Shown here in pieces: positions 1,753 to 19,878 of a stretch of DNA of 64,000 nt. This DNA comes from Pseudomonadota bacterium (GTDB lineage Bacteria; Bdellovibrionota_B; Oligoflexia; Oligoflexales; CAIYRB01): positions 4,175 through 68,174 of the forward strand of contig JAPLFX010000121.1 in the NCBI GenBank assembly GCA_026390445.1, written 5' to 3'. Position 1 is the stretch's first letter. Each line of letters begins with the position of its first letter. Made by a program: the position numbers and the translations under genes. The notes under the pieces were generated by a model, which had not been told where the DNA came from, did no database searches, and saw only the letters and a list, made by a program, of their open reading frames with translations.

Positions 1753-1771
1753 GTTCGTCTAAACCTAGGGC
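1746..1771. terminator. bidirectional hairpin between convergent genes
   Basis: Perfect 10-bp inverted repeat GCCCTAGGTT (1746..1755) / AACCTAGGGC (1762..1771) with a 6-nt loop. It spans the stop codon of the upstream + strand gene and abuts that of the downstream - strand gene. No strong T-run. Confidence 0.35.
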
Positions 1772-1772
1772 T

Positions 1773-2645
1773 CTACAGCGGTTCGCCCAGCGCTTTCGGC
1801 GCGCGCGATTTACCGACGAATCCGGCCAACACGATGATGGTCAAGACGTAGGGTAAAATCTGGATAAACTGAACTGGCACCTTACCGAGCCCGGCGATCT
1901 CCAGCCCCTGAAGACGGATCTGCACGGCATCAGCAACGGCAAAGAACAAACAGGCAAACAGCGTCGGCAGCGGTCGCCATTTGCCGAGGATCAGCGCGGC
2001 AAGCGCCATGAATCCACGTCCTGAACTCATATTGCGCGAATAAGCGGAGGACAAGAAGATCGACAAACTAGCCCCGCCGCTGCCAGCCAAAGCGCCGGCA
2101 GCAAGGAGCGCGGTCCAGCGCACCCGTGCCACCGACACGCCCGCTGCGGCCAAGGCCTCAGGATGTTCACCAGCGAAGTTTAGCCGCAAGCCGGCCCGGG
2201 TCTTGCCCAGCACCCACCACAGCGCGACCGGTGCGACCAGGGCTAGCCCCATCGGGAAGACGACAAAGCGATGCGCCAACTCGATACTCGGCGTTGAACC
2301 GGTGACGTCATAGAGGATCTTGGCGACAAAGGGCGGAATCCCCGCAGCCAACATGTTGATGCCGGTGGCCGCAACGATTTGATTGGCCTTGAGTGGCAAC
2401 ACGGCCACGCCGTAAAGAGCTGCGAGCAAGATACCGGCCAAACTGCCGCCAGCAAGACCGAGCCACGGCGATCCAGTCGCGAGGGTCACCACCGCGGCGG
2501 CAAAGGCGCCGACCAGCATCTTACCTTCGAGGGCCAAGTTGATGACCCCGGAGCGTTCACTGAGCAAACCGCCCATCGCGGCGAGGAGCAGCGGCGTGGC
2601 GAGACGCAAAGTAGCGGCGGCGAGATCGAGTAGGTGCTCTCCCAT
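1773..2645 (-). CDS. ABC transporter permease (BMP/nucleoside-sugar type, second permease)
   Basis: Polytopic hydrophobic protein in an operon with a duplicated ATPase and a BMP-family binding protein. Start moved to MGEHLL (2645), 2 nt after the upstream permease stop. Confidence 0.7.
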   Translation of the reverse strand: MGEHLLDLAAATLRLATPLLLAAMGGLLSERSGVINLALEGKMLVGAFAAAVVTLATGSPWLGLAGGSLAGILLAALYGVAVLPLKANQIVAATGINMLAAGIPPFVAKILYDVTGSTPSIELAHRFVVFPMGLALVAPVALWWVLGKTRAGLRLNFAGEHPEALAAAGVSVARVRWTALLAAGALAGSGGASLSIFLSSAYSRNMSSGRGFMALAALILGKWRPLPTLFACLFFAVADAVQIRLQGLEIAGLGKVPVQFIQILPYVLTIIVLAGFVGKSRAPKALGEPL

Positions 2646-6627: not shown

Positions 6628-7371
6628 ATGCAAAAACCAGTTTCATCTAAGCAACCGCAAGTTCAGTTTGGCAAAGGACTTCGAGTCTTCGGTGCGGTGG
6701 TCACCACGCTTGCAGCAACTCTAGCAGGCTGTGGAGGGCTTACGACGCTCAATTTGCGCAGCAAGCCTGCAAGTACTGAACCCGGTAGCAGCGCTCTCAC
6801 AAGCACTGCGGATGCAGCTGCTGCCGCCAAATGCGGGCATAAAGGCGACGGTAAAAAGGCCAAAAAAGGTAAGCACGGACAGAGTGGCTTCGCCCTCGCC
6901 GGAGCGACCGTGGTCACCTATGATGATCAAATTGCTGCGATCCTGAATCAAAGCTGCGTTGGTTGCCACAGTGGGATGGGTAGTTATAGCGGCGCTAAGG
7001 CCGACGGATCTAAGATCGTCAAAAGCGTTGCGAGCGGCAATATGCCCCCTGGCGGCCTGAGCGCTTCAGATAGACAGCTCTTTGCAAGCTGGCAGTCGGG
7101 TGGTTATTTGCAGTCGGCACCTGCGCCAGCACCGGCTCCTGCGCCAGCACCGGCTCCTGCGCCAGCACCGGCTCCTGCGCCAGCACCGGCTCCTGCGCCA
7201 GCACCGGCTCCTGCGCCAGCACCGGCTCCTGCGCCAGCACCGGCGCCAGCGCCAGCACCGGCTCCTGCGCCAGCTCCTGGAACGGGTACGTGCCAAGATG
7301 ACCATGATGCTGATGATGATCATCCACAAAAGGCAGGCGCCCATGCGCCTCACCGTCACAGTCAAGACTGA
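6628..7371 (+). CDS. lipoprotein with a single heme-c motif (planctomycete-cytochrome-c-like), Ala-Pro repeat and His/Asp-rich tail
   Basis: Lipobox LAGC. CVGCH (CxxCH) is followed by GNMPPGGLSASDRQLFASWQSGG, resembling the PSCyt1-type domain pattern. This is followed by 27 AP dipeptides and a C-terminal DDHDADDDHPQKAGAHAPHRH. Confidence 0.6.
   Translation: MQKPVSSKQPQVQFGKGLRVFGAVVTTLAATLAGCGGLTTLNLRSKPASTEPGSSALTSTADAAAAAKCGHKGDGKKAKKGKHGQSGFALAGATVVTYDDQIAAILNQSCVGCHSGMGSYSGAKADGSKIVKSVASGNMPPGGLSASDRQLFASWQSGGYLQSAPAPAPAPAPAPAPAPAPAPAPAPAPAPAPAPAPAPAPAPAPAPAPAPAPAPAPGTGTCQDDHDADDDHPQKAGAHAPHRHSQD
7117..7278 (+). repeat. in-frame tandem repeat encoding (Ala-Pro)x27
   Basis: The 18-bp unit gcgccagcaccggctcct occurs as six consecutive perfect copies at 7123..7230, followed by variants. 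Total length is 162 nt (54 codons), counted codon by codon. Confidence 0.95.
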
Positions 7372-7506: not shown

Positions 7507-7552
7507 TGGCGGTCGCGAGTGGAATCGAACCACTATCTGAGCTTTAGGAAAG
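7507..7552 (-). pseudogene. 3' fragment of split host tRNA-Arg(CCU), with junction core (attR-like)
   Basis: The minus strand reads CTTTCCTAA-AGCTC-AGAT-AGTGG-TTCGATT-CCACT-CGCGACC-G-CCA. There is no matching 5' acceptor strand upstream. It pairs perfectly with the 5' fragment at 17202..17165. Confidence 0.8.
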
Positions 7553-7990
7553 AAGCGTTATATCCACCCGGTATATGGCAGGGAGAGCGGCGTAAGGCAA
7601 GGCTTTTGGCCTCGGTGCTGCTTCCGTGCGACACCGTCGATGGCTTTTTTGTTGTGAGCCGAGCTGAGGGCCAGACGCCGGCGTGGGAGGTTCCCCAAGC
7701 CAGCCAGAGACGTGAAATCCCTTAATAATCTTTACGGAATAAAGTGGCTTAGTTTGATTTTTTTTAAAAAAATATATACCAATAAAATCAACTGATTAAA
7801 CTCGAGCCGAGTTCCGGCCCGTTCTTGGAGCCGAAAGGGTTCGCCCGCCCGGCTCACAAGCGGCATCATTGCGGCTGGTCAGCCTCAGACAAAGGTCTGT
7901 AATTAAGGTGACATGCAAGTAAAATCTCAAGAAATTCCTGGAAATTCCGAAGAGTTTATGCAAGACTAGGCTTGCCAGTTCGGGGATATT

Positions 7991-8263
7991 ATGAGTCAGG
8001 CCGCAAAAAATTCTAACCAACCTAGTCGCTTGGAGCGGAAGGCCCTGAGCTTTTTCCGTCGCACAAGGGGCATTTCCGATCTGCTGCCGATATACCGGGA
8101 GGCGATGGCGACGTACCCTGGACTGGGCGAGGATGCGGCCTTGGAGGCACTCTACACCTCCTGCGTAGCTGCCGAGCGTCGGCAAGCGGCCGACGTAGGC
8201 GACACCGCTACCTCGGAAGAGTTGGCAGGCATCGGCCGTTTAATCACCCTTCAGTCTCCGTGA
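7991..8263 (+). CDS. hypothetical protein (possible antitoxin partner)
   Basis: 90-aa ORF ending 12 nt upstream of the next ORF. Opposite strand to the rest of the element. GGGGATATT lies before the ATG. No family recognised. Confidence 0.35.
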   Translation: MSQAAKNSNQPSRLERKALSFFRRTRGISDLLPIYREAMATYPGLGEDAALEALYTSCVAAERRQAADVGDTATSEELAGIGRLITLQSP

Positions 8264-8275
8264 GTTCGGCAATCG

Positions 8276-8635
8276 ATGGCTGCAGCTTGGGATATTTATT
8301 GGCCTAAATCCGGCACCAAGTTCCTGATGGATCAGTCCGGCCGGGATCATATGATGCTAGTGGTCGGGGACCCTTACAGGTTCGGGGGTTATCCCTTTTT
8401 CCCCTTCATCCCGATTTCGCACACCCGTGCCGCTAATTACTGCGTGGCGCTGGCGGAAGCCGATGTCGCCCCCACTCAGGGCAGTCTTGGCGTCTCCAAT
8501 AGCTCTCATGCCTTATGCGGGTTGATTTTCACCGCCCGGGGTGACCAGTTCGGTACCCTGGTCGGCAAATTGACGAATAAAGCCAAAAAAGACGATATAT
8601 TAGAGGCGTTATCCAATCGGCTGGGGCTACTATAG
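8276..8635 (+). CDS. hypothetical protein, possible PemK/MazF-fold toxin
   Basis: 119 aa. The spacing pattern (W.IYW ... GRDHMMLVVGDP ... FIPISHT ... CVAL ... LCGLIFT ... GKL ... ILEALSNRLGLL) resembles the PemK/MazF architecture. By-eye only. Confidence 0.35.
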   Translation: MAAAWDIYWPKSGTKFLMDQSGRDHMMLVVGDPYRFGGYPFFPFIPISHTRAANYCVALAEADVAPTQGSLGVSNSSHALCGLIFTARGDQFGTLVGKLTNKAKKDDILEALSNRLGLL

Positions 8636-8647
8636 TCGATTCGACGC

Positions 8648-10276
8648 TCAGATCTCGCCCATATCCCTAATGTTTTGGGCCACCGGCTTACGGGCTTTCG
8701 CCCGTCGGCCCCGCAGTGGCCGCGTGCCGGACGCTGGGGCGGAGAGCCGCAGGCTCGGAGCCGTAGCGGTAGGCTCCGGACTGTGGCTCTTATAGCCATC
8801 ACAGTTAGTGCCCGCAGAGCTACCGACGTAGTCCAGCTCAAGCTGTTCTTGGACAATGCGTAGGGTATCGCCTAAGTGCTCGGCGAGCTGGTCAACGAGG
8901 TCCATATTGGCTGGAGCAGCGTGAACCATCCTCACCAATGCGACCAGTTTTTCGGCAGTGGTCCTTTGATCCATTGCGAGCAGGTGCTTATGGAGGTCTG
9001 CGATTCCTTCGCTGAGCACCGACCAAATTGGCCGATGTTCAGCACCTTCCGCCCGGAAGCCAAGGCCGATAAGGCCTGTCGAGGCTTCCCGGTCAGCTAG
9101 GTCCCTGGCACGGCGGTCGACGCTTTCAGACCAGAGTGCGAATAAGCCATCGCAGAGTTCTGACCACGGGACTAGCCGCTGGTGAGCAGCCGCAAGGAGG
9201 GCCAGCTGACGGTTGTGGAAGTTGGTGAGGGCATCGTGCAGAGTCAGTCGACCCGGCGTGGCTTTCGATTGTTTCTTTTCTGGTTCTTTGTCGGCCGCCA
9301 TGGTGGTCGCGGGGATTTTTTTGGCCTCGGTGCGGAATGGAGGCATCGCCATGGCCTCAGCGAATCTTATGGATGTCGGCCAGCGATTAGTCTTGGTCTT
9401 TTTGCTGACGTTGGTATTGGCGTTCGCTGGGCACTCTCGCACCGTCCGGCGTTGCGTCCACAGGTCAAAAAGCAGCGACGCTGACAACGTGCCGCCATAT
9501 AGGGCCGTCGTGACGGCACGCAGCGGTTGCTTGCCACTCATTCCTATCTCCAGCCTGGTGACGTCTTGGTCCTCCGGAACGCCATCTTTCTGCCACCGGG
9601 CAGTATGGGCCGCCAGGACATCGACGTCTTTGCACGCATTGTCCAGCCAACGCCTTTTAGAGTAAATGCGAAGTAGCCAAGCTCCCCGCGGTCCGGCAAG
9701 CCACACGCTGTTGTATTGGTTAAGAGGTGTGACTTTGTCACCCATGAACGGCCAGAATATTCGCTCTGACGGGAGGGGTAGGACATTGCGGGCGTTGATG
9801 GCGTTGCCAGCAAACTCCCGCATGGCCTCGGCCTGAGTGACATGGGCTTTCAGTGCGAAATGTTGGTGAAGAGCCAAGGCCATAGCCTTAATGATGTCCA
9901 GACCCGCCTTGTCGTCATACTGGAGCAGGGCCCAAAACTTGCCGTTAAAATCGATGCGAGTGCCGTGGGGTTCCACGGCGACGAAAATGCCGTTGTCTGT
10001 CTGGTAGGCTGGCGTATTCCCAGGGAGACGTTTCAGAGCGAGGCCCAATACTCGCCGTAGCTCGTCACCCGGGTCACCTGCATACCGGCTACGTATGAGC
10101 TTGGGGACGACGATGCGGAGGTTGTCGAAGTGCGGGACAGCTAGCGGGTGGTCCAGAGGCAAAGGCGGCAAGGTGGCAACGACTGGCGTCTGCCGACCAG
10201 CTTCACGGATAGCCCCTCGGGCGGCCCTGCAGGGCCGGCGTTTAGGGCGAGCCTTTTTTGCCTTGGCCCTTCCCAT
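8648..10276 (-). CDS. replication initiation protein (Rep_trans/RepSA-like rolling-circle initiator)
   Basis: The ordered motifs HGTRIDFNG, LLRIYSKRRW and VTRLEIGMSGKQ resemble the RID / RxYdK / tRxE blocks of replication initiation factor (PF02486-type) proteins. Basic N-terminus. Confidence 0.55.
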   Translation of the reverse strand: MGRAKAKKARPKRRPCRAARGAIREAGRQTPVVATLPPLPLDHPLAVPHFDNLRIVVPKLIRSRYAGDPGDELRRVLGLALKRLPGNTPAYQTDNGIFVAVEPHGTRIDFNGKFWALLQYDDKAGLDIIKAMALALHQHFALKAHVTQAEAMREFAGNAINARNVLPLPSERIFWPFMGDKVTPLNQYNSVWLAGPRGAWLLRIYSKRRWLDNACKDVDVLAAHTARWQKDGVPEDQDVTRLEIGMSGKQPLRAVTTALYGGTLSASLLFDLWTQRRTVRECPANANTNVSKKTKTNRWPTSIRFAEAMAMPPFRTEAKKIPATTMAADKEPEKKQSKATPGRLTLHDALTNFHNRQLALLAAAHQRLVPWSELCDGLFALWSESVDRRARDLADREASTGLIGLGFRAEGAEHRPIWSVLSEGIADLHKHLLAMDQRTTAEKLVALVRMVHAAPANMDLVDQLAEHLGDTLRIVQEQLELDYVGSSAGTNCDGYKSHSPEPTATAPSLRLSAPASGTRPLRGRRAKARKPVAQNIRDMGEI

Positions 10277-11588
10277 GGTGGTCGCCGCCCTTAAAAAAAT
10301 CTGGATTATATGGACCCCGGAACTTTATTAATTGATTGTTTTCATGGAGGAAAAACACCCCACGCGGCATTGGCTCTCGGGCTGCCCTGTCGCTTTGCAC
10401 CAGGGTCCGGGCCATGGCATCGCGGTATCGTCCGACTACCTTCCATGACAGACCATCGAGCTCGATGGCCAGTGCTCCGGCTGCAGGGTCTTGCACGCCA
10501 ATAAGACAGTGCCTCGATATCGCACGGTACTTCCGGAACCAGGCTCCTACGGTGTCGATAAGCTGGGCGTAGGTTTGCTCCAGATCGTTCCAAGGCTTCT
10601 CCTGGGTCGGGCGGCGGAGCGGCCTCAGGTAGTCTTTGGCCTCGTCACACACCAGCACCCACCTGGGATGGGTCTCGGGCGATACGATGCCGAGCCGGTA
10701 CAAGTCCTCGATGTGCTCAACATGGTGGGCGTCCAGGAGGTCGAGGAGGGCGGCGGCGGTAGCGTTCAACTCCGCCAAAAGTTGCTGGAGAGACGCCATG
10801 TCCGAGGGCTTGAAGGCATTGAACACCTGCGTTCCCGGGATTCGGCGGAACAGAGCCAAGTGCTTGGTGGAAATAACCACGATCCGGACGGACGGCGTCG
10901 TCTTCACCACCGACGTCAAGTACATCGCAATCCATGCCGACTTCCCGGATCCTGATGGAGCGATGATAGCGGCGGCCGGGTCATCGGCCAGCCGGCGGGT
11001 CAGTGGCGTGAGACGCTCCGATATTCCTAGAAAGGCGGTGAACGGCTCCATATCACGAGGCATTGCCGACAAATCGACAGCGTCGGGCACCGTGGCTGCA
11101 TGGAAGCGGAAGACCCGAGGGTCTTTATCATCTGCCGTACAGTCGTAGAACCAGGTGCCCCAACTGCCGGACCATAAATCCAGCTCGTCCCGGAGCTTCT
11201 GGCGTTTTACCCCGTGGGGGAACGTAACTCGGAGGGTGGCTTTCCGGACCTTGGATCGTCCGACCGTAATGCTTTCCCATTTGGCGATTGGGTATATCCA
11301 CTCACGGACGGCGGCGTTCTTCGGGGACAGGACCTCACGTTGCGATGCATAATTGTGCAACTCGTAGAATTCGTGACGCAGGTACTTGCGGCGGTAGTGA
11401 CGATAGAGGGAGCAACATGCCAGGGCAGGCAGGGTGAGGATTTTGATGGTGGACCTTGGATACCTGATGGCGAGAACAGTCGCCAAGCCGGCGATGACCC
11501 ACAATCCGAAATCATCGAGCGTCCCGCAGGCGGCCGAGGAGAGACCCCAGGCATGAACTGGCGGGATTTTGCAGATGATGTGTGTCAT
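10242..11588 (-). CDS. membrane-anchored P-loop ATPase, FtsK/SpoIIIE/TraB-like DNA translocase
   Basis: N-terminal hydrophobic segments, Walker A IIAPSGSGKS and Walker B WVLVCDEA. Strong RBS GAGGAGGAGG before the ATG at 11588. Confidence 0.5.
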   Translation of the reverse strand: MTHIICKIPPVHAWGLSSAACGTLDDFGLWVIAGLATVLAIRYPRSTIKILTLPALACCSLYRHYRRKYLRHEFYELHNYASQREVLSPKNAAVREWIYPIAKWESITVGRSKVRKATLRVTFPHGVKRQKLRDELDLWSGSWGTWFYDCTADDKDPRVFRFHAATVPDAVDLSAMPRDMEPFTAFLGISERLTPLTRRLADDPAAAIIAPSGSGKSAWIAMYLTSVVKTTPSVRIVVISTKHLALFRRIPGTQVFNAFKPSDMASLQQLLAELNATAAALLDLLDAHHVEHIEDLYRLGIVSPETHPRWVLVCDEAKDYLRPLRRPTQEKPWNDLEQTYAQLIDTVGAWFRKYRAISRHCLIGVQDPAAGALAIELDGLSWKVVGRYRDAMARTLVQSDRAAREPMPRGVFFLHENNQLIKFRGPYNPDFFKGGDHHGKGQGKKGSP

Positions 11589-11614
11589 GGGTACCTCCTC
11601 CTCGGATGTGCGGG

Positions 11615-11917
11615 CTAGGGTCGCCGGTAGACCTTGGTGACCGTGTGGAAATCGTTTTCCAGGCGGCTAATCTCGTCGTCGCCATCAACGAAAAATCCGT
11701 CACCCCGCCAGTCATGGGTCGGCGGTGGCGACACAGAAGCCAGCCACGCTTCGGCTGACTGCATAGGACGTAGATAAAGGTTCACGAGTGCGAGGGCGGC
11801 GGCGATGGTGGCGATTCCCGGTGGCGTGCCGATGGCGTTAGGACACCCACGACGCACCAGCCGCACACCGCCACCATAGGACCTGACGAACCGCCCCAGC
11901 ACTTCGTGCTCGTTCAT
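11615..11917 (-). CDS. hypothetical small membrane protein
   Basis: 100 aa with one hydrophobic segment (GIATIAAALALVNLYL). RBS GGAGGGAGG before the ATG. Start overlaps the stop of the upstream ORF. Confidence 0.5.
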   Translation of the reverse strand: MNEHEVLGRFVRSYGGGVRLVRRGCPNAIGTPPGIATIAAALALVNLYLRPMQSAEAWLASVSPPPTHDWRGDGFFVDGDDEISRLENDFHTVTKVYRRP

Positions 11918-12249
11918 GGCTTGCCTCCCTCCGCTGGCCTTTTCGCCGGCGTCGTGGCGGTGGTCGCCCCAGGCAGAATTTCCAAGATTCGACCGTAGAG
12001 GGCGGTTTGAGTGCCGCTGACGACGTAGGCACCGATTTCCACCCGCAAGGTTTGCACGCCTTTAGGCACCTCAACGGCGGACTTGAAACGCTCGACGGTC
12101 CGTTCCTCGAAAATTTCGTCCGACCCTGGGATGGTACGGACGTTCGTGCCTTCAAAAGCAACGAGGAATGGCGGTTGGTCTTTCTCGGCCTTGTCATTTG
12201 GGGAAGTGCCGAGGACACGGATGGTCATGATGACTGTAGCTTTCTTCAT
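11914..12249 (-). CDS. hypothetical protein
   Basis: 111 aa with AAAGG upstream of the ATG. Same strand and translationally coupled to the downstream ORF. No family recognised. Confidence 0.5.
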   Translation of the reverse strand: MKKATVIMTIRVLGTSPNDKAEKDQPPFLVAFEGTNVRTIPGSDEIFEERTVERFKSAVEVPKGVQTLRVEIGAYVVSGTQTALYGRILEILPGATTATTPAKRPAEGGKP

Positions 12250-12596
12250 GGTGTTACCTTTCAGAATGTTTTGCGTTGATGAATTGCGTTTGTGGCTAGA
12301 TGGATTCCGGTCGGATCATTGGCGGTTGGGCACGGCCCTCCTTTATGAGCCCAGGGAAATGGGGTGGGTGACATGCTGATAAGGTACCGAGATCCAAGTG
12401 CGGCGATTTAGGGGGGGTGGACAGCAAGATGGTCGCACGATCCGTAACCAAGATAAGTATTTGAAATAACGGGACATGTAGGAGATTGGCCCGCGGCCGA
12501 TGGGGAGGGCGTCACCCCCCTCTCGCAGCGGGATGACTGGTTTTGCGGCTGCCAGGAGCCAGACGGGCGATGCCATCTGACTCCGCTGACGGTGAT

Positions 12597-12869
12597 TTAT
12601 GCAGCCGCCCGGCGAGCAATGGACTCAACGACGACCTTCAGGCGTCCCGATTTTCTATCAACGGAGATGCGGCCCGCGCAGGTAAGGTCGACTTCACCGA
12701 CGACCAGACCGGCAGACGCCTTCACCAGTGCCCAAGTGGCCTCTTGTGTAGCGATGCCGTCGTAGCCTGCCCCTTTCAGGACGATAAAGGCGGACAGCCA
12801 TTCAGCGTTCTTGGTTTTATCCAAGCGGATGACTTTGATGACGGAGAATGATGCGGTCACTTGGTTCAT
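12597..12869 (-). CDS. hypothetical protein
   Basis: Start set to MNQVTASF (ATG at 12869) because of the RBS GAGGAAATT directly upstream. 90 aa. No family recognised. Confidence 0.45.
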   Translation of the reverse strand: MNQVTASFSVIKVIRLDKTKNAEWLSAFIVLKGAGYDGIATQEATWALVKASAGLVVGEVDLTCAGRISVDRKSGRLKVVVESIARRAAA

Positions 12870-13158
12870 AATTTCCTCGTGATTGAGTGTTGGCTGGGCG
12901 TTCTGCCCTCGCAAGAATGGGGCAGACGCAGCTAGCCAACTGGAGCGACGTCAGCCAGGCGGATTGCTCCGGCATACGTGCTGCAGGGAGGCTATATCCA
13001 CGGCGTCTGTAAAAGATGAAGTGGCCCCCGGAGGCACGGAGGCTGGTCATGGAGCTGGCGCTGACGAGCGGACGAGGGAGGAAATGGCTGCAAAACCGGG
13101 CCAGAGAGGCGTCGTGAGTACCCCTAACGGGTAATTTGCAGGCCAAGAACACATCGGA

Positions 13159-13533
13159 TCAGCTGTTAACGGTGATCCGTGGTCGGGAGTTTGCCCATGT
13201 TATCAGGTCAGCAATGTAGCTGGCCCTTCTGGTCTGCGGGTTCTGTGAAATGATACTGCCGAATGCCCCTGCGCGCAGGTGGATCTTGCTGTTTTTAGGG
13301 CCGAGGTGATTAATCAATATGATGGGTTTACCAGAACCCTGGAGGTAAGCACGTGCACGGTACGTTTTGCCGTTGAGTGTCCGAATCAGCTGCCCGTTAA
13401 ACGCTAGTTGGTTGAAGACGGTGCGGAACATTGATACCTCGCGTTTTGATAAGGCCGTGATGATGCCGTTGCGCCGTGTTGAATAAGGGCGTCCTGAGTT
13501 TGTCGTCTGAGGGCGAAATCCGGGCGAAATCAC
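13159..13533 (-). CDS. hypothetical protein
   Basis: ORF of 124 aa overlapping the upstream stop. An alternative start at 13431 (MFRTVF) has the RBS GAGGTATCA. No family recognised. Confidence 0.4.
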   Translation of the reverse strand: MISPGFRPQTTNSGRPYSTRRNGIITALSKREVSMFRTVFNQLAFNGQLIRTLNGKTYRARAYLQGSGKPIILINHLGPKNSKIHLRAGAFGSIISQNPQTRRASYIADLITWANSRPRITVNS

Positions 13534-13802
13534 CGTTTGCTATGGATACGTCGTTTCGGAGCAAATGTGTCCTTTGCACTTTCTTCCCCATGCATAGCAA
13601 CGTGGTAGGCGATATTTCGCACTAACTCCCTGTTGTGGAGCAACAATAGTGCCAAACCTCCGCCACACATTTCCTTGGAAACAGCCTTGATAATCGCCTT
13701 ACGGATGTCACGCTGTTGCCACAATTGCCTCACTTCACCAAGTCGGTCGGCCAATTCGTCGATTCGCTCCTCGGTCGACTTCTGTCTTTTCGTCGCCCCC
13801 AT
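13530..13802 (-). CDS. hypothetical protein
   Basis: 90 aa with a strong RBS GGAGGATCC before the ATG. Charged, helical-looking N-terminus. No family recognised. Confidence 0.5.
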   Translation of the reverse strand: MGATKRQKSTEERIDELADRLGEVRQLWQQRDIRKAIIKAVSKEMCGGGLALLLLHNRELVRNIAYHVAMHGEESAKDTFAPKRRIHSKR

Positions 13803-13902
13803 GGATCCTCCTTCGTTTGATTAGAATTACGATATTATTGCGGTCCCGGGTCAGCATTAAGGACTGATAGTGGAATAGGGCATTTCGCGTGCGAGGCGGC
13901 GG

Positions 13903-14247
13903 TCACCACAGCTCCCACCAGACCGGCTTTTTGCCGCTAACTCGCTTTATTATCCCAATGTGAGCCAGCACCGGGCCTAGATGGGATAGGTGGCGTGGGG
14001 TAAGCCCCCCTGGTTTATGAGTTTGCACGAAGTCGCCAAGTGAGCCTGCCGGTGGTGCGTCCTCGCTCATTCCGGGCTTAAGCTTTTTGGCTTGGGCGAG
14101 TTTCGTCGCCTGTTCGATGATAATTCTCACGGAGTCCCAGGACACTATTTTGATAGATTGACCGTAAATGATTGTTACGCCGGCCGTAGCGTCAATCTCG
14201 GTGTCAAATCCCTCGCCCATGGCCGTTTGTAATTGAACTTTTGGCAT
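13903..14247 (-). CDS. hypothetical protein
   Basis: 114 aa with RBS GGGGAGATC upstream of the ATG. No family recognised. Confidence 0.45.
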   Translation of the reverse strand: MPKVQLQTAMGEGFDTEIDATAGVTIIYGQSIKIVSWDSVRIIIEQATKLAQAKKLKPGMSEDAPPAGSLGDFVQTHKPGGLTPRHLSHLGPVLAHIGIIKRVSGKKPVWWELW

Positions 14248-14334
14248 CGATGATCTCCCCGCGTCCTAGGTCGCCAATGGCACCACATTCAGCGTTCAAC
14301 ATTCAGCGTTCAACTGTGGTCCTGACACGGAGTC

Positions 14335-15579
14335 CTAAAAGGCGGCACAATGATAGGTCCCGACCCAGTTCGTCGTATAGTAGCTCGGACTATCAACTTC
14401 CATTGTGGTGCTCCCAAGATTCGTTACCACCGCCGTAGCGAATTTATATTGGTGATAGGTAGTGCTATTGATAGTGCAAGTGGTGGGAATGCCTGTCGCC
14501 ATATCACTGGCAAACGTCCCTGGCCATGGGTTTTGACCATTCCCGTTCTGGATCGTATATCCAGACGGCAGTGTCGGGTACGTAACCGTGAATTTGTAGT
14601 CATTGTTGGTCGCGACCGTACTCCCCACGGCATCGATAGCACTCACGCATGCATAGTAGGTCCCTTGCGTTAACGCCGTAAGTAGCTGCGTGACGGCCGT
14701 TGTGCTGTATGTTTGCGAGGGCGACGAGCAGTCGGAGTTCGAACTCACAGTGACCGAGTATGAGCCAGCCCCGTTGGCGGTGCCCCACGTCAACGTCGGT
14801 GTTTGGATCGTCGATACAGCGGTGCCCGAACTCACCGAGGTGACACTGAAGCTGCCAGGGGCAAGACTCACGGTAAATGCAAAGGGACTGTTCGCCGCGG
14901 TCAGCGTCGTCGAGCCGGATGTAGCAGTGACGCAGGAATAGTAACTGCCGGCGGTTAACGTAGTGAGGACCTGCGAGGTAGAGGTCACCGCCGTGTACGA
15001 CTGACTAGGACTACTACAATCCGAAGCTGCCGAAAGAGAGACACTGTAGGTAACCGTCGCTGTCGAAGGCGTAGGCGTTGAAGCTCCCCAGGTGACAGTA
15101 GGCGTCGCCGTGGTCGTCGCTGTAGCTGGGGCGGTGATGCTAAATGCTGCCAATTTCGGTGCGGCAGCCGTTAGAGTGACCGTGAATGCGAATGGGCTGT
15201 TGGTCGCAGCGAGGGTGGTCGACCCGGAGGTAGCGGTAACGCACACGTAGTAACTACCTGCCGTCAAGGCTGTCAGTGCTTGCGTGGTGGTCGTCACCGC
15301 GGTGTATGTCTGACTTGGACTACTGCAGTCGGATTTTGCTGAGGCCGAGACGTTATATACTACCGTAGCGCTTGATGGTGTCGGAGTTGCAGCTCCCCAG
15401 GTGACCGTTGGCGTTGCCGTGGTGATGGCGGCAGCCGGGGCGGTGATGCTGAATGCGGCAAGTGACGGAGCAGCGGCGGTAGGTGTGGCGGCAGTCGGAC
15501 TTGTAGCAGGCGATGGACCCTTGGACGATCCGCAAGCAGGCAACATGGCTATTAGCATGACCGTCGAGAGGCATTTCAT
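14335..15579 (-). CDS. lipoprotein with three tandem Ig/FN3-like repeats and a distinct C-terminal domain
   Basis: Signal peptide plus lipobox (MLPACGSS). RBS AGGAGGATC. Three ~100-aa units each contain TWG ... Y.V..S..SDCSSPSQ.Y ... LT.LT.G.YY.CV.A ... F.FTV. Confidence 0.7.
   Translation of the reverse strand: MKCLSTVMLIAMLPACGSSKGPSPATSPTAATPTAAAPSLAAFSITAPAAAITTATPTVTWGAATPTPSSATVVYNVSASAKSDCSSPSQTYTAVTTTTQALTALTAGSYYVCVTATSGSTTLAATNSPFAFTVTLTAAAPKLAAFSITAPATATTTATPTVTWGASTPTPSTATVTYSVSLSAASDCSSPSQSYTAVTSTSQVLTTLTAGSYYSCVTATSGSTTLTAANSPFAFTVSLAPGSFSVTSVSSGTAVSTIQTPTLTWGTANGAGSYSVTVSSNSDCSSPSQTYSTTAVTQLLTALTQGTYYACVSAIDAVGSTVATNNDYKFTVTYPTLPSGYTIQNGNGQNPWPGTFASDMATGIPTTCTINSTTYHQYKFATAVVTNLGSTTMEVDSPSYYTTNWVGTYHCAAF
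14575..15471 (-). repeat. three tandem ~300-bp intragenic repeats
   Basis: Approximate unit boundaries: aa 37-137 and 138-238 are near-identical, and aa 239-335 is diverged. This corresponds to 15471..15169, 15168..14866 and 14865..14575. Confidence 0.7.
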
Positions 15580-15791
15580 GGGAGATCCTCCTAGTTGTTA
15601 CTATCGACACCGAAATACGCCTCGGCACGATAGCCACGAAGCCTTAGCCATTTTTGGCAACTCGTGAGCAAGGACATTTATTCCAGTTGGTTGCGTGCGA
15701 AGCTGCAAGACCCGTCTGTTCCCAGACGGTCCGGATGGGCTTGGGCTCGGATCGACGGGATGCCCGTAGCTGGCGGGAATTAACTAAAGGA

Positions 15792-15866
15792 TGGCGGTCC
15801 CAGCAGGACTCGAACCTGCAACTGAGCTTTAGGAAAGCCCCGGTATATCCCTTTACCTATGGGACC
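15792..15866 (-). tRNA. tRNA-Arg (anticodon CCU), element-borne, CCA encoded
   Basis: 75 nt: GGTCCCA-TA-GGTA-AAGGGATA-TACC-G-GGGCT-TTCCTAA-AGCTC-AGTT-GCAGG-TTCGAGT-CCTGC-TGGGACC-G-CCA. All four stems pair. A small hairpin at 15712..15729 lies downstream. Confidence 0.85.
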
Positions 15867-15872
15867 TTACGG

Positions 15873-17042
15873 TCATGCGATGTCGTCCAAGTCTCTGTCC
15901 GCTTCGTCACGTTCTTTATCGCCAGGCGACCTAGCGTACAGAATCGTCGTCGACACCAAGGAATGCCTAAAATGACTCTTTGCGAGCATTATGTCGATAT
16001 TTTTCGTCCGTAGCAGCCAGAGACACGAGCTGCGGCGGAGGTCGTGCGGGGTCACGTTGAGGAGCGGGCGGACGTCCCTCGTATAGACCTTGTCATAATG
16101 CCCCCTTGTCCAGCTCCAGATGGGACCAGCCGGCAAGGTCTTCAGAATGTCGACGATCAGCTGGGCGGCGGTCATGTCCCAGATGCAGACATACTCGCGT
16201 CGGTATTGGTTCTTAACCTCCTCCTCTTCGCTGGCAATCTTGGCCCGTTCGACGCTGATAATCAGTTTACTGCCCATATCATAGCGTTTAAAGCCAGTAT
16301 AGGTTTCGCACTGGCTGGCGTTTTTGTTGCCGGTCAGGAAGTCCTTATGATGAAGTCCCGTGAATTCGCTCGGCGACAGCCCGCCAAAATAGCCGCACAG
16401 GACACCCAGAGCTGCCAACGGACTCTTGGCCAGCAGGGCACGAGCGGTTTGGAGGGCGGCCTCGGGATCGACTCTAACCTTGAGCGGGGTTTCTTTAACA
16501 TAATTGGCCGAGGGGATGTCCAGAATCCATGGTTGGCTGATTTTTTCCTTCTTGGCCAGCCAGCGTCCGAAATTATTGAGCAGCCACAGGATTTTTTTTA
16601 CGGAGCTGATGTCTAGCGTGCCCCGCCGTGTCTCCTGGCTCAGCAAATAGACGGGAAAGTCGGCGATTTGGTGCCGCCACTTGCGGACGTTTTTGAGACC
16701 GTGAATACCGATGAAGTAGGGCAGGATATAAACGGCCCAGGCATCGTGGGTGTCCCTCATCGTGACATCCTTGACGCCTCGCATGAGCTGATATTCTTTC
16801 GTAAAGGCAGCCCAGCAGCTCGATAGATCGTCGCCCTGGCGGAGCTGGTATCGTTGCACCCGGTGGACGGCTACGCCGTGGGCATTCTCCCAGTCCCGAA
16901 CCCACTCGGTTATACGATCGTCATCAAGGTCATCCAGGTGCCGACATTCAGCCCTCGGCACCTGCACATTTTTCTTGGCGATGGTGTCATAGTAATAAAC
17001 CGTCACCAGTTTCGAGCCGCGTCTCCTGGTCCAGCAAGCCAT
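15873..17042 (-). CDS. tyrosine-type site-specific recombinase/integrase
   Basis: C-terminal HDLRRS (HxxR) and RHSLVSTTILY (H...Y) boxes. The box I region reads GGLSPSEFTGL. RBS GAGAGGGA. Adjacent to the tRNA and to the split-tRNA junction. Confidence 0.75.
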   Translation of the reverse strand: MACWTRRRGSKLVTVYYYDTIAKKNVQVPRAECRHLDDLDDDRITEWVRDWENAHGVAVHRVQRYQLRQGDDLSSCWAAFTKEYQLMRGVKDVTMRDTHDAWAVYILPYFIGIHGLKNVRKWRHQIADFPVYLLSQETRRGTLDISSVKKILWLLNNFGRWLAKKEKISQPWILDIPSANYVKETPLKVRVDPEAALQTARALLAKSPLAALGVLCGYFGGLSPSEFTGLHHKDFLTGNKNASQCETYTGFKRYDMGSKLIISVERAKIASEEEEVKNQYRREYVCIWDMTAAQLIVDILKTLPAGPIWSWTRGHYDKVYTRDVRPLLNVTPHDLRRSSCLWLLRTKNIDIMLAKSHFRHSLVSTTILYARSPGDKERDEADRDLDDIA

Positions 17043-17164
17043 AATCGTCCCTCTCGTAGAGTGCGACGCTTCTTTTCGGCAATAAATTCAACGACCTTAG
17101 CATCATCCAAACTGCATCCGCTGCCGCCGCTGTAATCATTGACTAATTCAGCCAACTATAGGCC

Positions 17165-17202
17165 TTAGGAAAGCCCTGTTCTATCCGTTGAACTACGCAA
17201 CC
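17165..17202 (-). pseudogene. 5' fragment of split host tRNA-Arg(CCU), with junction core (attL-like)
   Basis: The minus strand reads GGTTGCG-TA-GTTC-AACGGATA-GAAC-A-GGGCT-TTCCTAA (38 nt), after which the sequence cannot complete the acceptor stem. Confidence 0.8.
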
Positions 17203-17464
17203 AAGGGGCCTCACAGTACATCTCCAACGCTCCGAGCGGCAACAGGTTTTTCTGCTTCATGAGGTGCAGAGCCTGGAACAATTCCAACGCCAATGTCCCC
17301 ATGCAACACAGCGGCTAAATGTCTGCTATGTCGCCGGCCATATCTATTACCCAACTGTTATTACTTAGCTTTCCCACCACCATAAAAATAAATCCAGGCC
17401 CCCCCTTATCTTTTATACCGCAACAGCCGAATTACACAGGAGGCGGAGCCGGCACTATGCGGCG

Positions 17465-19807
17465 TTGCTCTGGCAAGGTGCCAAAGCCATGGTGGGCGAT
17501 GGGGTAAGCTCGGTGGGCGATATTGATCTGCGCAAACGATTATTGAGGATTAGCTGGGGCTTCATTGTCGCCGTGGCCATCATCCTCATCAACTTCGCGC
17601 TGCCGTCGCCACCGACCACGCCGTATCAAATCGAGGCCCTGTCCGAAGGCTTTGAGCATTTGACCCTGGCCGAGGCACAATCTAAGCCCAAGACCGCGTG
17701 GCAGAGCGTCGATCCACGTCAGCTATCCTTTCCTGCCGATGCCGGCCGCGAGGTCTGGCTGCATGCGAAGGTGCCGGCAAACCAAAGCGGCGAGAAATGG
17801 GTGGCGGAGGTGTCGACGCCGTATATCCGCCAACTCGACTTTTATCTAACAGAAAACGATCAGACCATTCAGTCCGCCTTCCTTGGCATGGACCGACCGC
17901 TCGCGAACCGCCAGTATAATGTCGTGTACCATGCGTTTGGCTTTACACCGTCAAGCAGCCAAGAGCAGCATCTCTATATCCGTGCCTACTCCGAAGTGAA
18001 CGTCTACCTGCCACTAAAAATTATCACCGAAACAGCATTCCATACCGATTCGATCGAGCGAAATACGATACTCGGGATGCTAATCGGCGTGTTTTTTGGC
18101 CTAGTCTTATACAATCTGTTTATCTGTGTGTCGCTGCGCGACCGCGTCTATGCCTACTACTGCCTGTACGAAATCGGCATCCTATTTCTCAGCACAACGG
18201 CTAATGGCCAGATCCAAATGATCTTTCCTCAGGCAGCGTCGGCGTTCGCCATGGACCTTCGTTTCATGGCCTTAAGTCTCGCCGGAGTCGGCATCGCCTT
18301 CGCCTTGTTCATCCAAGAATTCGCCGCGCTTAAGCACAACGATGCGCAAGCCAACCGGCTCGTGCTACCGTTTATCGGCCTACTGTTGATCATGACGATT
18401 CCCATCATGATCATGCCGCTGCATATCATGGTCAATGCTGTGATCATTTCAATCAGCCTAGGGGTCGCCCTACTGCTGCTGGGAACATCGCTGCGCGCCA
18501 AGACTCGCCGTGAATTCTACTTGTTCCTGTCCTTCGTTGGACTCGCGACCTGCTGTGGCTTGACCTTAGCGACCGATAACCACTTGATCCACGCCTCGAT
18601 GCTCTCCCAAGATATGCTGAGCATCGGTTGCATCTGGCAGGCCCTGTTTCTGTCGATCGCCTTGGCCGAACGTATCTCGGTCATGGAAGACGAGCGCAAA
18701 GTGATTATCCGCACCCTCAAAGGTGATGGTCCCGCCAGCGAGTTAAACAATATCCTCGGCAAGACCTTCAGTCGAACGCATTCGCTAACGGAGATGAACG
18801 TCTCCATAATGTTTATCGACATCGTCGGCTTTTCTCAGCTGTCGGACATCCTCGGCTCGCGCAAAACATTTGACCATTTAGCCCGCCTCATGCAAGACGT
18901 CACATCCATCGTCAAGGAATGCCACGGTAACGTCGACCGCTCCTTGGGCGACGGCGTCCTGTGTATCTTTGGGTACGAGTCCAGTGGCTTAAGATTGCAG
19001 CACCACGCCCAAGACGCCTTCAAGGCCGCTCGCCGGATCCAGGAAGACATCGTCAGCCGCTACCAAAACGGCGCGTTAAGCGGTGAGTACGTGCTACCCG
19101 TGCGCATCGGCATCCACGTTGCGAATGTGTTGATTGGCGATCTCGGCGGCAAGAGTCGCATCGATTTCACCATGGTCGGCAGCGGCGTCAACTTCGCCAG
19201 CCGCTTGGAGACTGCGTGTAGTCCGTTTAAGATCATGCTCAGCGAGGAATGCTTAAACCGCCTCCCACGCAATGCCGTTAAAGAGCCCGGGCTCGCCGAG
19301 ATCTTGGTCGCAGTCAAACACGAGAAGACCCTGATGAAAGCCTATGAATTCGACCCCTTTTATAGCGACCCTGAGCGTCTGCAAGCGGTCGAAAAATTGC
19401 ACATGGATCAACTTGCGCGCAAGACCGAGGATTCACGCCACGTCATCATCAGCGGCCAACCGGTGCACCTCTGCAGCGACCTAGCCGTGTTCAATCTCCT
19501 CGACTTTTCCAACCACGGCTTTCGCGTCATGAGCGAGGTTTATATCGGCCGGCATGCCACCATGGAACTGACCCTGCTCACCTTCGACGCCGCCACCAAC
19601 CAAGCCCTGGAAGATCTGCTGCTGAACAAGTTCTTCGTTGAGGTGCGCTGGAGTCGCAAGGCCAAAACCGGCGGTTACGAGCACGGCCTGCGCATCTCAG
19701 GGCTCAACGATGTGCAGCGGGAAAAGCTGTTTAACCTCGTCGCCAAGCTCTACGCTCCGACGGACACGGCGCTTGACGGCACGCCCGACGTTCCCCTAGC
19801 CGGCTAA
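17465..19807 (+). CDS. 7TMR-DISM-type membrane receptor fused to a class III adenylate/guanylate cyclase and a C-terminal PilZ-like domain
   Basis: N-terminal periplasmic region followed by about 7 hydrophobic helices. Cyclase motifs MFIDIVGFS, GDGVLCIFG, RIGIHVANVLIGDLGG and MVGSGVNFASRLE. C-terminal DFSNHG (DxSxxG). An alternative ATG start lies at 17489. Confidence 0.75.
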   Translation: MLWQGAKAMVGDGVSSVGDIDLRKRLLRISWGFIVAVAIILINFALPSPPTTPYQIEALSEGFEHLTLAEAQSKPKTAWQSVDPRQLSFPADAGREVWLHAKVPANQSGEKWVAEVSTPYIRQLDFYLTENDQTIQSAFLGMDRPLANRQYNVVYHAFGFTPSSSQEQHLYIRAYSEVNVYLPLKIITETAFHTDSIERNTILGMLIGVFFGLVLYNLFICVSLRDRVYAYYCLYEIGILFLSTTANGQIQMIFPQAASAFAMDLRFMALSLAGVGIAFALFIQEFAALKHNDAQANRLVLPFIGLLLIMTIPIMIMPLHIMVNAVIISISLGVALLLLGTSLRAKTRREFYLFLSFVGLATCCGLTLATDNHLIHASMLSQDMLSIGCIWQALFLSIALAERISVMEDERKVIIRTLKGDGPASELNNILGKTFSRTHSLTEMNVSIMFIDIVGFSQLSDILGSRKTFDHLARLMQDVTSIVKECHGNVDRSLGDGVLCIFGYESSGLRLQHHAQDAFKAARRIQEDIVSRYQNGALSGEYVLPVRIGIHVANVLIGDLGGKSRIDFTMVGSGVNFASRLETACSPFKIMLSEECLNRLPRNAVKEPGLAEILVAVKHEKTLMKAYEFDPFYSDPERLQAVEKLHMDQLARKTEDSRHVIISGQPVHLCSDLAVFNLLDFSNHGFRVMSEVYIGRHATMELTLLTFDAATNQALEDLLLNKFFVEVRWSRKAKTGGYEHGLRISGLNDVQREKLFNLVAKLYAPTDTALDGTPDVPLAG

Positions 19808-19878
19808 ACCGCAGCCGGCACGGCGAACTCCGGTTAGTCCTTGGCGCGGCAGTTCGTTCAAGTTAAAGACTGAGCCCT

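What the first reader, a model, noticed from the sequence alone, without database searches (positions are those of the whole stretch)
15792..15875. The element carries its own intact tRNA-Arg(CCU) 6 nt after the integrase stop codon, a likely replacement for the gene it destroys
15866..15792 (minus strand) folds into a complete 75-nt tRNA-Arg(CCU) with encoded CCA. Its anticodon arm (GGGCT-TTCCTAA-AGCTC plus AG) is identical to the reconstructed host gene. Its acceptor (GGTCCCA/TGGGACC), D and T stems are all different, so it is not a duplicate of the host copy. It starts 6 nt after the integrase TGA (15875..15873), which implies co-transcription with int. It shares 16 identical nt with the host 3' fragment (15822..15837 = 7537..7552) and 12 nt with the host 5' fragment (15829..15840 = 17165..17176). 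A mobile element that inactivates an (often single-copy) rare-codon tRNA while supplying its own version would make the host dependent on retaining it. That would be an addiction-like stabilisation mechanism distinct from toxin-antitoxin systems.
Basis: partly seen in the sequence, partly recalled or inferred. Interest (0 to 1): 0.8.

Follow-up and report, generated by a model that had tools for sequence, protein, structure and literature searches.

The report
Integrase cassette carrying spare tRNA-Arg
A 9.6-kb mobile element has cut the host's tRNA-Arg(CCU) gene in two at the anticodon loop without repairing it and carries its own complete tRNA-Arg(CCU) right after its integrase gene, which is a new, conserved example in uncultured bacteria and phages of the recently described 'tRNA-dependent lysogeny'.

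Summary
A 75-nt tRNA-Arg(CCU) lies at 15792..15866 (-), 6 nt after the integrase stop.

A host tRNA-Arg(CCU) is split at its anticodon loop by a 9.6-kb insertion (7553..17164), flanked by a 9-bp core, CTTTCCTAA. Joining the halves gives a valid tRNA. It is 75/75 identical to the uninterrupted gene at the same chromosomal place in a close relative (L030). Neither junction is a tRNA.

The integrase is a divergent lambda-like tyrosine recombinase. In all 18 relatives examined that have the short attP-like site, that site (TGGATATAAC-N5-TTCCTAA) lies 93-158 nt upstream of int and a tRNA-Arg lies 5-45 nt downstream. One lineage has UCU in both places. One relative keeps the tRNA 3' half in attP and has no cargo tRNA.

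This is 'tRNA-dependent lysogeny' (Guerrero-Bustamante & Hatfull 2024, PMC10865867), here with a new integrase family, isotype and host group. The replacement reading is supported. The addiction reading is not: precise excision should rebuild the host gene, and tRNA-Arg(CCU) is dispensable in E. coli (PMC4652775). Verdict: new member of a known kind, moderate interest.

The parts
7507..7552 (-). Displaced 3' part of the host tRNA-Arg(CCU) gene: anticodon loop to CCA, including the core.
   Evidence: The sequence CTTTCCTAAAGCTCAGATAGTGGTTCGATTCCACTCGCGACCGCCA pairs with the 5' part at 17202..17165 (acceptor GGTTGCG/CGCGACC). It is identical to the intact gene in L030.
7544..7552 (-). attR copy of the 9-bp common core CTTTCCTAA (tRNA positions 30-38).
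   Evidence: The only block identical at both junctions. The blastn breakpoints against the empty site L030 fall here.
7553..7570 (-). Element-side left arm of attP. It holds the D-loop mimic TGGATATAAC (7557..7566), 5 nt from the anticodon-loop mimic.
   Evidence: The same TGGATATAAC-N5-TTCCTAA motif lies upstream of int in the free-form relatives L001, L005, L006, L015, L016, L021, L022, L048 and L049.
7553..17164 (-). The inserted element: 9,612 bp between the two cores, all large ORFs on the minus strand.
   Evidence: Absent from the syntenic contig L030. Besides int and the tRNA it holds a 414-aa repeat lipoprotein-like ORF, a 448-aa weakly FtsK/EccC-like ATPase and a 542-aa ORF with no match. 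No phage structural genes were recognised.
15712..15729 (-). G+C-rich hairpin (CCGTCTG-GGAA-CAGACGG) 62 nt after the cargo tRNA. It may mark the end of the int-tRNA transcript.
   Evidence: RNAfold of the 90 nt downstream of the tRNA. It is not followed by a clear U-run, and similar hairpins occur in only some relatives.
15792..15866 (-). Cargo tRNA-Arg(CCU), 75 nt, CCA encoded. It contains a third copy of the 9-bp core (15829..15837).
   Evidence: ARAGORN. Rfam tRNA, 58.2 bits. The homologous cargo tRNAs of 16 lineages fold as a cloverleaf, with compensatory changes in 19 of 23 pairs.
15867..15872 (-). 6-nt spacer between the int stop codon and the tRNA 5' end.
   Evidence: The equivalent gap is 5-45 nt in all relatives.
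15873..17042 (-). Integrase, 389 aa: a divergent lambda-like tyrosine recombinase.
   Evidence: PHROG 1 integrase, 5.5e-11. Pfam PF00589 only 16.6 bits, below its cut-off. The family profile matches the XerC-like recombinase 4a8e at 1.1e-5. The AlphaFold model (pLDDT 77) matches full-length lambda Int 1z1b, XerA, IntI4 and Cre at probability 1.00. The motifs HDLRR...H-R-H...Y are invariant.
17043..17164 (-). Element-side right arm of attP and int leader, with GGATG sites at 17101..17121 (-77 and -66 from the int start).
   Evidence: A GGATR site lies 52-66 nt before the int start in every relative, in addition to the one 15 nt before the core. These are candidate integrase-binding sites (inference).
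17165..17173 (-). attL copy of the 9-bp core CTTTCCTAA.
17165..17202 (-). 5' part of the host tRNA-Arg(CCU) gene: acceptor to anticodon loop, including the core.
   Evidence: The sequence GGTTGCGTAGTTCAACGGATAGAACAGGGCTTTCCTAA is identical to the intact gene in L030. It has the same orientation as int and the cargo tRNA.

Best explanation
This is a compact integration module, attP - int - tRNA-Arg(CCU), working by the mechanism published as tRNA-dependent lysogeny.

1. The lambda-like tyrosine integrase recombines an attP that lies about 130 nt upstream of its own gene with the anticodon loop of the host tRNA-Arg(CCU) gene. This attP mimics only the D-loop, the 5' anticodon stem and the anticodon loop of tRNA-Arg(CCU).
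2. attP shares only 9 bp with the target and carries no tRNA 3' half, so the host gene is left in two dead pieces.
3. The complete, independently folding tRNA-Arg(CCU) just after int supplies the lost decoding function.

Shown here: the insertion, the 9-bp core, the dead junctions, the intact cargo tRNA, and conservation of the module with matching anticodons.

Inferred: that the cargo tRNA is expressed and charged; that it is transcribed with int (possibly from the host tRNA promoter, which points into int and the cargo tRNA after integration); and that the host needs it.
For: Insertion and junctions:
- The empty-site allele in L030 is 75/75 identical to the joined halves, and the blastn breakpoints fall at the core.
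- ARAGORN and Rfam find no tRNA at attL, at attR or in the rebuilt attP, whereas the joined halves give tRNA-Arg(CCT).
- A second, independent integrated copy in a Bdellovibrionales MAG (L018) has both junctions and a 9-bp core GTTTCCTAA. Its joined halves are a valid tRNA and its junctions are not. Contigs L019 and L024 show further attL-type junctions.

Conservation of the module:
- All 18 lineages with integrases 31-40% identical to this one (window plus L001, L005, L006, L010, L014-L019, L021, L022, L024, L025, L028, L048, L049) carry a tRNA-Arg 5-45 nt after int.
- All those with upstream sequence have the anticodon-loop mimic 93-158 nt before int on the same strand.
- The backbones are unrelated.
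- L017 has TTTCTAA in attP and a UCU cargo tRNA. L026 has a CCG attP that keeps the tRNA 3' half, and it has no cargo tRNA.
- The cargo tRNAs keep the cloverleaf through compensatory changes in 19 of 23 pairs.
- Integrase identity and cargo tRNA identity are correlated (Mantel r = 0.35, p about 0.02).

Protein and precedent:
- Tyrosine recombinase fold with a lambda-like N-terminal domain.
- Experimental precedent for the mechanism: PMC10865867.
Against: - No expression or charging data exist.
- The rest of the MAG could not be searched, so another tRNA-Arg(CCU) or a UCU isoacceptor able to read AGG may exist. In E. coli the CCU species is dispensable (PMC4652775), so 'required for survival' may not apply here.
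- The window's element has no recognisable phage genes, so 'lysogeny' in the strict sense is unproven for it.
- The position that aligns with the canonical box-I arginine is Ser in the window's integrase and Gly in seven relatives. This is unexpected for an active tyrosine recombinase.
- The element's genes are rich in AGG (11.7 versus 2.6 per 1000 codons). The tRNA may therefore also, or mainly, serve the element's own translation.
Confidence: 0.8

Rival explanations
1. Addiction-like stabilisation. By destroying the host's only AGG reader and supplying its own, the element makes the host unable to lose it.
For: The host gene is inactivated and the cargo gene is intact. Imprecise deletion of the int-tRNA end of the element would leave the cell without tRNA-Arg(CCU). 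AGG is used in host genes at 2.6 per 1000 codons.
Against: Integrase-mediated excision is conservative and would rejoin the two halves, which are still 75/75 identical to the intact allele, so ordinary curing costs nothing. tRNA-Arg(CCU) is dispensable in E. coli because tRNA-Arg(UCU) reads AGG (PMC4652775). The same cassette sits in free phage genomes, where the selected trait is viable lysogens rather than host entrapment (PMC10865867).
Confidence: 0.07
2. The cargo tRNA is mainly a codon-supply gene for the element's own AGG-rich genes, as proposed for many phage tRNAs. Its match to the integration target would then be secondary.
For: Element ORFs use AGG 4.4 times more often than host ORFs: 21 of 1793 versus 40 of 15144 codons. 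Related phage contigs use AGG at 4.6-10.6 per 1000 codons.
Against: This does not explain four observations: the tRNA is always the isoacceptor mimicked by attP, including the UCU switch in L017; it is always glued to int; the classical relative L026, whose attP keeps the tRNA 3' half, lacks it; and attP has lost the tRNA 3' half. The two roles are compatible.
Confidence: 0.12
3. The tRNA after int is really a host gene, or the true attP. In that case this would be an ordinary tRNA-targeting island whose target is regenerated.
For: Integrases commonly sit next to their tRNA target. The cargo tRNA contains the same 9-bp core and anticodon arm as the target.
Against: The cargo tRNA lies inside the insertion that is absent from the empty site L030. 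It lies inside phage contigs with phage genes on both sides (L001, L048, L049). In the window and in L018 the crossover is at the site upstream of int, and the cargo tRNA is untouched.
Confidence: 0.02

Closest known systems
tRNA-dependent lysogeny of actinobacteriophages (Fionnbharth K4, Cluster L, Gaia, Gordonia CQ2/DL phages; Guerrero-Bustamante & Hatfull, mBio 2024, PMC10865867)
   Same: A tyrosine integrase with a lambda-like arm-binding domain. attB lies in a host tRNA gene. The common core is only 8-17 bp (9 bp here), so no tRNA is rebuilt. [quoted passage not shown] Close relatives with a long core lack the cargo tRNA (L026 here; Boilgate, Ximenita and Omega there). In Gaia the tRNA also lies downstream of int.
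   Different: A different, very divergent integrase family: no tblastn match in 50,697 cultured phage genomes. The isotype is Arg(CCU)/Arg(UCU) rather than Lys, Ile2 or Leu. The hosts are uncultured Bdellovibrionota-like or 'Proteobacteria' MAGs. The attP-int-tRNA order and spacing are fixed over integrases only 31-40% identical, on unrelated backbones that include a 9.6-kb element without recognisable phage genes. Requirement for the tRNA is untested, and the CCU isoacceptor may not be essential.
Lactobacillus johnsonii prophage Lj965 and S. meliloti prophages similar to Mesorhizobium phage Lo5R7ANS (as cited in PMC10865867, PMC11476347 and PMC12429752)
   Same: These are reported as prophages that fail to rebuild the target tRNA and carry a cognate tRNA. 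They show the principle outside Actinobacteria.
   Different: Known to me only through those citations. Their sequences were not compared here. No conserved int-tRNA cassette was described in the passages read.
Classical tRNA/tmRNA-targeting integrative elements (Williams 2002 sublocation classes; Islander database, PMC4383910)
   Same: A tyrosine integrase next to attP, with the crossover in the anticodon loop of a tRNA gene and a displaced tRNA fragment marking the far end of the island.
   Different: Classical elements carry the tRNA 3' (rarely 5') part in attP and regenerate the target. Here attP keeps only a D-loop/anticodon-loop mimic, and the target is not regenerated.
E. coli argW (tRNA-Arg CCU) as a prophage integration site
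   Same: The same isoacceptor is used as attB (my own knowledge, not tested here).
   Different: Those prophages are understood to restore argW. No similarity search against E. coli genomes was run.

Membership tests
tRNA-dependent lysogeny (PMC10865867) | Integration is mediated by an element-encoded tyrosine integrase. | tested here: met
   PHROG 1 integrase, 5.5e-11. Family profile versus PDB XerC-like 4a8e, 1.1e-5. The model matches lambda Int, XerA and Cre at probability 1.00. H-x-x-R, H and Y motifs are invariant. Caveats: Pfam PF00589 is below its cut-off, and the box-I Arg position is Ser.
tRNA-dependent lysogeny (PMC10865867) | attB overlaps a host tRNA gene. | tested here: met
   The empty site in L030 is an intact tRNA-Arg(CCT), 75/75 identical to the joined halves in the window. 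The same holds for L018.
tRNA-dependent lysogeny (PMC10865867) | [quoted passage not shown] | tested here: met
   The core is 9 bp. ARAGORN and Rfam (E up to 1) find no tRNA at either junction. L018 also has a 9-bp core and dead junctions.
tRNA-dependent lysogeny (PMC10865867) | [quoted passage not shown] | tested here: met
   Cargo tRNA-Arg(CCT) at 15792..15866. The same is true in 17 related lineages, and one has UCU in both attP and cargo.
tRNA-dependent lysogeny (PMC10865867) | The host tRNA is essential, and the element's tRNA is required for viable integrants. | not testable with these tools
   The rest of the MAG was not available and there is no genetics. By analogy, argW is dispensable in E. 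coli (PMC4652775), so this feature may not hold.
tRNA-dependent lysogeny (PMC10865867) | The element is a temperate phage. | tested here: inconclusive
   Relatives L001, L048 and L049 are phage contigs, with terminase, P22-like portal, DNA polymerase and Rad52 genes. The window's 9.6-kb element shows no phage structural genes in Pfam, PHROGs or NCBIfam, only a weak FtsK/EccC-like ATPase.
Classical target-restoring tRNA islands and prophages (Williams 2002; Islander) | attP carries the tRNA 3' (or 5') portion, so an intact tRNA gene is regenerated at one junction. | tested here: not met
   There is no tRNA at attL or attR. After the core, attP continues with non-tRNA sequence. Only the outlier L026 keeps a tRNA 3' half.
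Addiction (post-segregational killing) modules | Loss of the element harms the cell. | not testable with these tools
   By inference from conservative site-specific recombination, excision restores the host gene, whose halves are undecayed. Only imprecise deletion would be penalised.

The most novel reading that the evidence does not exclude
The 1.6-kb attP-int-tRNA unit may be a self-sufficient, portable integration cassette that moves between unrelated phages and small non-phage elements. It needs only the nearly universal D-loop and anticodon-loop features of tRNA-Arg(CCU) in the target and brings its own complete tRNA. It could therefore work in hosts whose acceptor and T arms would be incompatible with a hybrid tRNA. 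After integration, the host tRNA promoter would drive int and the cargo tRNA. The cargo tRNA would also recreate an attB (identical 9-bp core and anticodon arm) for further family members, which would permit serial accretion.
Probability: 0.25. Interest if true: 0.6.

Novelty: new member of a known kind. Interest (0 to 1): 0.45.

Why it matters
- It extends tRNA-dependent lysogeny, shown experimentally only in actinobacteriophages in 2024, to a separate integrase family. That family circulates in uncultured Bdellovibrionota-like bacteria, their phages and a small non-phage-like element.
- It gives comparative evidence that was not available before. The cargo anticodon tracks the attP anticodon, and a classical relative that keeps the tRNA 3' half lacks the cargo. 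The cassette has kept its order and spacing across integrases only 31-40% identical.
- It is a warning for island and prophage finders that assume the target tRNA is regenerated. Here they would mis-set the boundaries or take the cargo tRNA for the target.
- The compact cassette could become an integration vector for hosts that are hard to engineer.

Tried and rejected
1. A scan of IMG/VR for the attP pattern TGGATATAACNNNNNTTCCTAA gave 17 contigs. None has a tRNA or an integrase homologue, and most hits lie in a conserved coding sequence. Only L035 looks attP-like. This is close to chance expectation and uninformative.
2. tblastn of the integrase against 50,697 cultured phage genomes found no match.
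3. Window element proteins other than int have no tblastn match in any related locus, so the backbones are unrelated.
4. Pfam, PHROGs, NCBIfam and PDB sequence searches of the 542-aa, 414-aa and small ORFs found nothing. The 448-aa ORF is only weakly FtsK/EccC-like. The element type stays undefined.
5. The sigma-70 promoter scan found no site on the int/tRNA strand, and the terminator scan found nothing convincing. Hairpins after the cargo tRNA occur in only some relatives. Neither result is decisive.
6. I considered whether attL or attR could give a hybrid tRNA. At attL the anticodon stem and a T-arm-like hairpin can be drawn by eye, but the acceptor cannot pair, and ARAGORN and Rfam reject it.
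7. I considered the cargo tRNA being the true attP or a host gene. The empty site and the junctions in the window and L018 rule this out.
I therefore could not search the source MAG for other tRNA-Arg genes or fetch attR of L019.
Full report
**1. The observation**

ARAGORN finds a single tRNA in the 64-kb window: tRNA-Arg(CCT) at 15792..15866 on the minus strand, 75 nt with encoded CCA. Rfam's tRNA model scores it 58.2 bits against a gathering score of 29. A 389-aa ORF at 15873..17042 on the same strand ends 6 nt before the tRNA's first base.

**2. The split host gene and the empty site**

Read on the minus strand, 17202..17165 is the 5' part of a tRNA, GGTTGCGTAGTTCAACGGATAGAACAGGGCTTTCCTAA. 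Likewise 7552..7507 is a 3' part, CTTTCCTAAAGCTCAGATAGTGGTTCGATTCCACTCGCGACCGCCA.

- The only sequence common to both junctions is the 9-nt CTTTCCTAA (tRNA positions 30-38).
- Joining the halves over it gives a 75-nt sequence that ARAGORN calls tRNA-Arg(CCT).
- The two junctions and the rebuilt attP are not tRNAs for ARAGORN. Rfam gives nothing there even at E up to 1.

To test the insertion directly I searched for relatives of the flanking 7TMR-DISM adenylate cyclase (17465..19807). Contig L030 has a cyclase 91% identical. It carries an uninterrupted tRNA-Arg(CCT) that is 75/75 identical to my reconstruction, with the same flanks. In a blastn comparison, L030 352-3552 matches window 17162-20358 and L030 3-363 matches window 7198-7552.

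The insertion is therefore 7553..17164 (9,612 bp) plus a duplicated 9-bp core. A more distant syntenic contig, L029, also has an intact tRNA-Arg(CCT) in this neighbourhood.

**3. The integrase**

- Pfam's Phage_integrase model is below threshold (16.6 bits), but PHROG 1 (integrase) matches at 5.5e-11.
- A profile of the family matches the XerC-like recombinase 4a8e at 1.1e-5.
- An AlphaFold model (mean pLDDT 77) matches full-length lambda integrase, XerA, IntI4, Cre and Tn1549 Int at probability 1.00, including an N-terminal beta-strand domain like lambda's arm-binding domain.
- H-D-L-R-R, H-x-R-H and the tyrosine are invariant.
- One oddity: the position that aligns with the box-I arginine is Ser in the window, Gly in seven relatives and Arg in ten.

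**4. The family and its conserved module**

The integrase is rare. A search of 5.8 billion proteins gave 8 relatives at 32-36% identity, and a profile search added five. Scans of genome, viral and metagenome contigs added a dozen loci.

- Cargo tRNA: in every lineage for which the 3' end of int is on the contig (window plus L001, L005, L006, L010, L014, L015, L016, L017, L018, L019, L021, L022, L024, L025, L028, L048, L049), ARAGORN finds a tRNA-Arg 5-45 nt after the int stop on the same strand. It is CCT in 17 and TCT in L017.
- Folding: sixteen distinct cargo tRNAs fold into one cloverleaf, with compensatory changes in 19 of 23 pairs. They are maintained as tRNAs although their stems differ.
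- Site upstream of int: a TTCCTAA lies on the same strand 93-158 nt before the int start.
  - In free (phage) copies it is preceded by TGGATATAAC-N5.
  - In integrated copies (window, L018, L019, L024) it is preceded by a genuine tRNA 5' half.
  - The element side of the window's attR (..GGGTGGATATAACGCTTC) joined to the element side of attL (GGCCTATAG..) recreates exactly this motif. attP therefore lies upstream of int.
- Candidate binding sites: GGATR sites recur 15 nt before the core and 52-66 nt before the int start, often with an inverted TATCC just after the core. They suit a lambda-like integrase, but this is an inference.

**5. Three comparisons that make the functional link convincing**

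(a) L018, from a Bdellovibrionales MAG, has both junctions of an unrelated element of about 10.5 kb. It has a 9-bp core GTTTCCTAA, the joined halves give a valid tRNA-Arg(CCT), the junctions are dead, and the cargo tRNA is intact after int.

(b) L017 has TTTCTAA at the attP position and carries tRNA-Arg(UCU). The cargo anticodon follows the attP anticodon.

(c) L026 has an integrase 33% identical to the window's. Upstream of int it has a CCG-type site followed by a full tRNA T arm and acceptor strand. That is the classical target-restoring layout, and L026 has no cargo tRNA after int.

The backbones are otherwise unrelated.
- L001, L048 and L049 are phage contigs with terminase, P22-like portal, DNA polymerase or Rad52 genes.
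- The window's element shares nothing but int with any of them and has no recognisable phage genes.
- Integrase identity and cargo tRNA identity are modestly correlated (Mantel r = 0.35, p about 0.02), as expected if int and the tRNA travel together.

**6. Mechanism**

Shown:
- site-specific insertion at the anticodon loop through a 9-bp core;
- no regeneration of the target;
- an intact cognate tRNA glued to int.

Inferred:
- The cargo tRNA replaces the lost function.
- It is transcribed with int, because the gaps are too short for a promoter and no sigma-70-like site was found on that strand.
- After integration, the host tRNA promoter could drive int and the cargo tRNA. In all four integrated copies it points through the 5' half into them.
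- A self-contained tRNA would also free the element from having to match the host's acceptor and T arms.
- A second benefit is possible, because element ORFs use AGG at 11.7 per 1000 codons against 2.6 in host ORFs.

**7. Comparison with what is known**

Guerrero-Bustamante and Hatfull (mBio 2024, PMC10865867) described exactly this logic as tRNA-dependent lysogeny.
- A tyrosine integrase acts on an attB in a tRNA gene, with a common core of 8-17 bp and no reconstruction.
- A cognate phage tRNA is required for viable lysogens.
- Closely related phages with long cores lack the tRNA.
- In phage Gaia the tRNA lies downstream of int.

They cite Lactobacillus prophage Lj965 as an earlier hint. Later papers report the pattern for some Sinorhizobium meliloti prophages. 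The window therefore holds a new member of a known kind. The integrase family is new, with no match in 50,697 cultured phage genomes. The isotype and host group are also new, and the cassette is unusually fixed and portable.

**8.

- Conservative excision at the two cores would rebuild the host gene.
- Its halves are still identical to the intact allele although the flanks are only 84-88% identical.
- In E. coli the CCU isoacceptor is dispensable, because tRNA-Arg(UCU) also reads AGG (PMC4652775).
- Only imprecise deletion of the int-tRNA end would be penalised.
- Whether this host has another AGG reader could not be tested, because the rest of the MAG was out of reach.

**9. Verdict**

'Replacement for the gene it destroys' is well supported by comparative evidence. 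'Addiction mechanism distinct from anything known' is not supported. Interest is moderate.

Noticed in passing
window 15873..17042 (residue S216 in GGLSPSEF); family alignment: The position that aligns with the canonical box-I catalytic arginine of tyrosine recombinases (GLRxSEL in XerC-like 4a8e) is Ser in the window, Gly in 7 relatives, Ser in 3 others and Arg in 10. An extra Arg directly after the box-II Arg (HDLRR) is invariant. Whether that Arg substitutes for the missing one is unknown.
   Followed up: partly
L017 1595..1669 and about 150 nt upstream of int (421..1581): One family member carries tRNA-Arg(TCT) and has TTTCTAA instead of TTCCTAA at the attP position. This looks like a coordinated switch of target and cargo anticodon.
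   Followed up: partly
L026 1034..1103 and int 1240..2382: A 33%-identical integrase has the classical layout. A CCG-anticodon attP-like site with a complete tRNA T arm and acceptor 3' strand lies about 135 nt upstream of int, and no tRNA follows int. It may represent the ancestral or reverted state.
   Followed up: partly
L020 3077..3607 (+) and 4454..4050 (-): In a Pseudomonadota MAG contig the integrase homologue is in two pieces on opposite strands, the C-terminal part on one and the N-terminal part on the other. There is no tRNA nearby. This is an inversion or an assembly artefact.
   Followed up: no
window 7544..7552, 15829..15837, 17165..17173: The 9-nt core occurs three times. The cargo tRNA has the same 19-nt anticodon arm as the host gene and a GGATA D-loop, so it could itself serve as an attB for a second element or recombine with attL or attR.
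   Followed up: no
window 7507..7552 and 17165..17202 versus L030 318..392: The two dead halves of the host tRNA are 75/75 identical to the intact gene of a relative whose flanking DNA is only 84-88% identical. This suggests a recent insertion or continued selection, for example through excision.
   Followed up: partly
window 7553..17164 versus the rest of the window: Element ORFs use AGG at 11.7 per 1000 codons (17.5% of Arg codons), against 2.6 per 1000 (4.2%) in 39 host ORFs.
   Followed up: partly
window 14335..15579 (-): A 414-aa ORF directly after the cargo tRNA has a lipoprotein-like signal sequence and three tandem Thr/Ser/Ala-rich domains of about 100 aa (DNA repeat 14864-15163 / 15173-15472, 72% identical). 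It has no family match.
   Followed up: no
window 10242..11588 (-) and 8648..10276 (-): A 448-aa ORF with N-terminal hydrophobic segments and a Walker A motif is only weakly FtsK/EccC-like. The overlapping 542-aa ORF has no match anywhere. The transfer or replication mode of the 9.6-kb element is unknown.
   Followed up: partly
window 7097..7294 (host ORF 6628..7371, +): An 18-nt tandem repeat of about 10 copies encodes a Pro/Ala-rich stretch in the host gene next to attR. The relative L030 has a similar repeat.
   Followed up: no
L035 6148..6169 (-): An IMG/VR contig has an attP-like GTGGATATAACCAAGCTTCCTAA followed by an inverted TTATCCA. The 11.8 kb held contains no integrase homologue of this family and no tRNA.
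   Followed up: no
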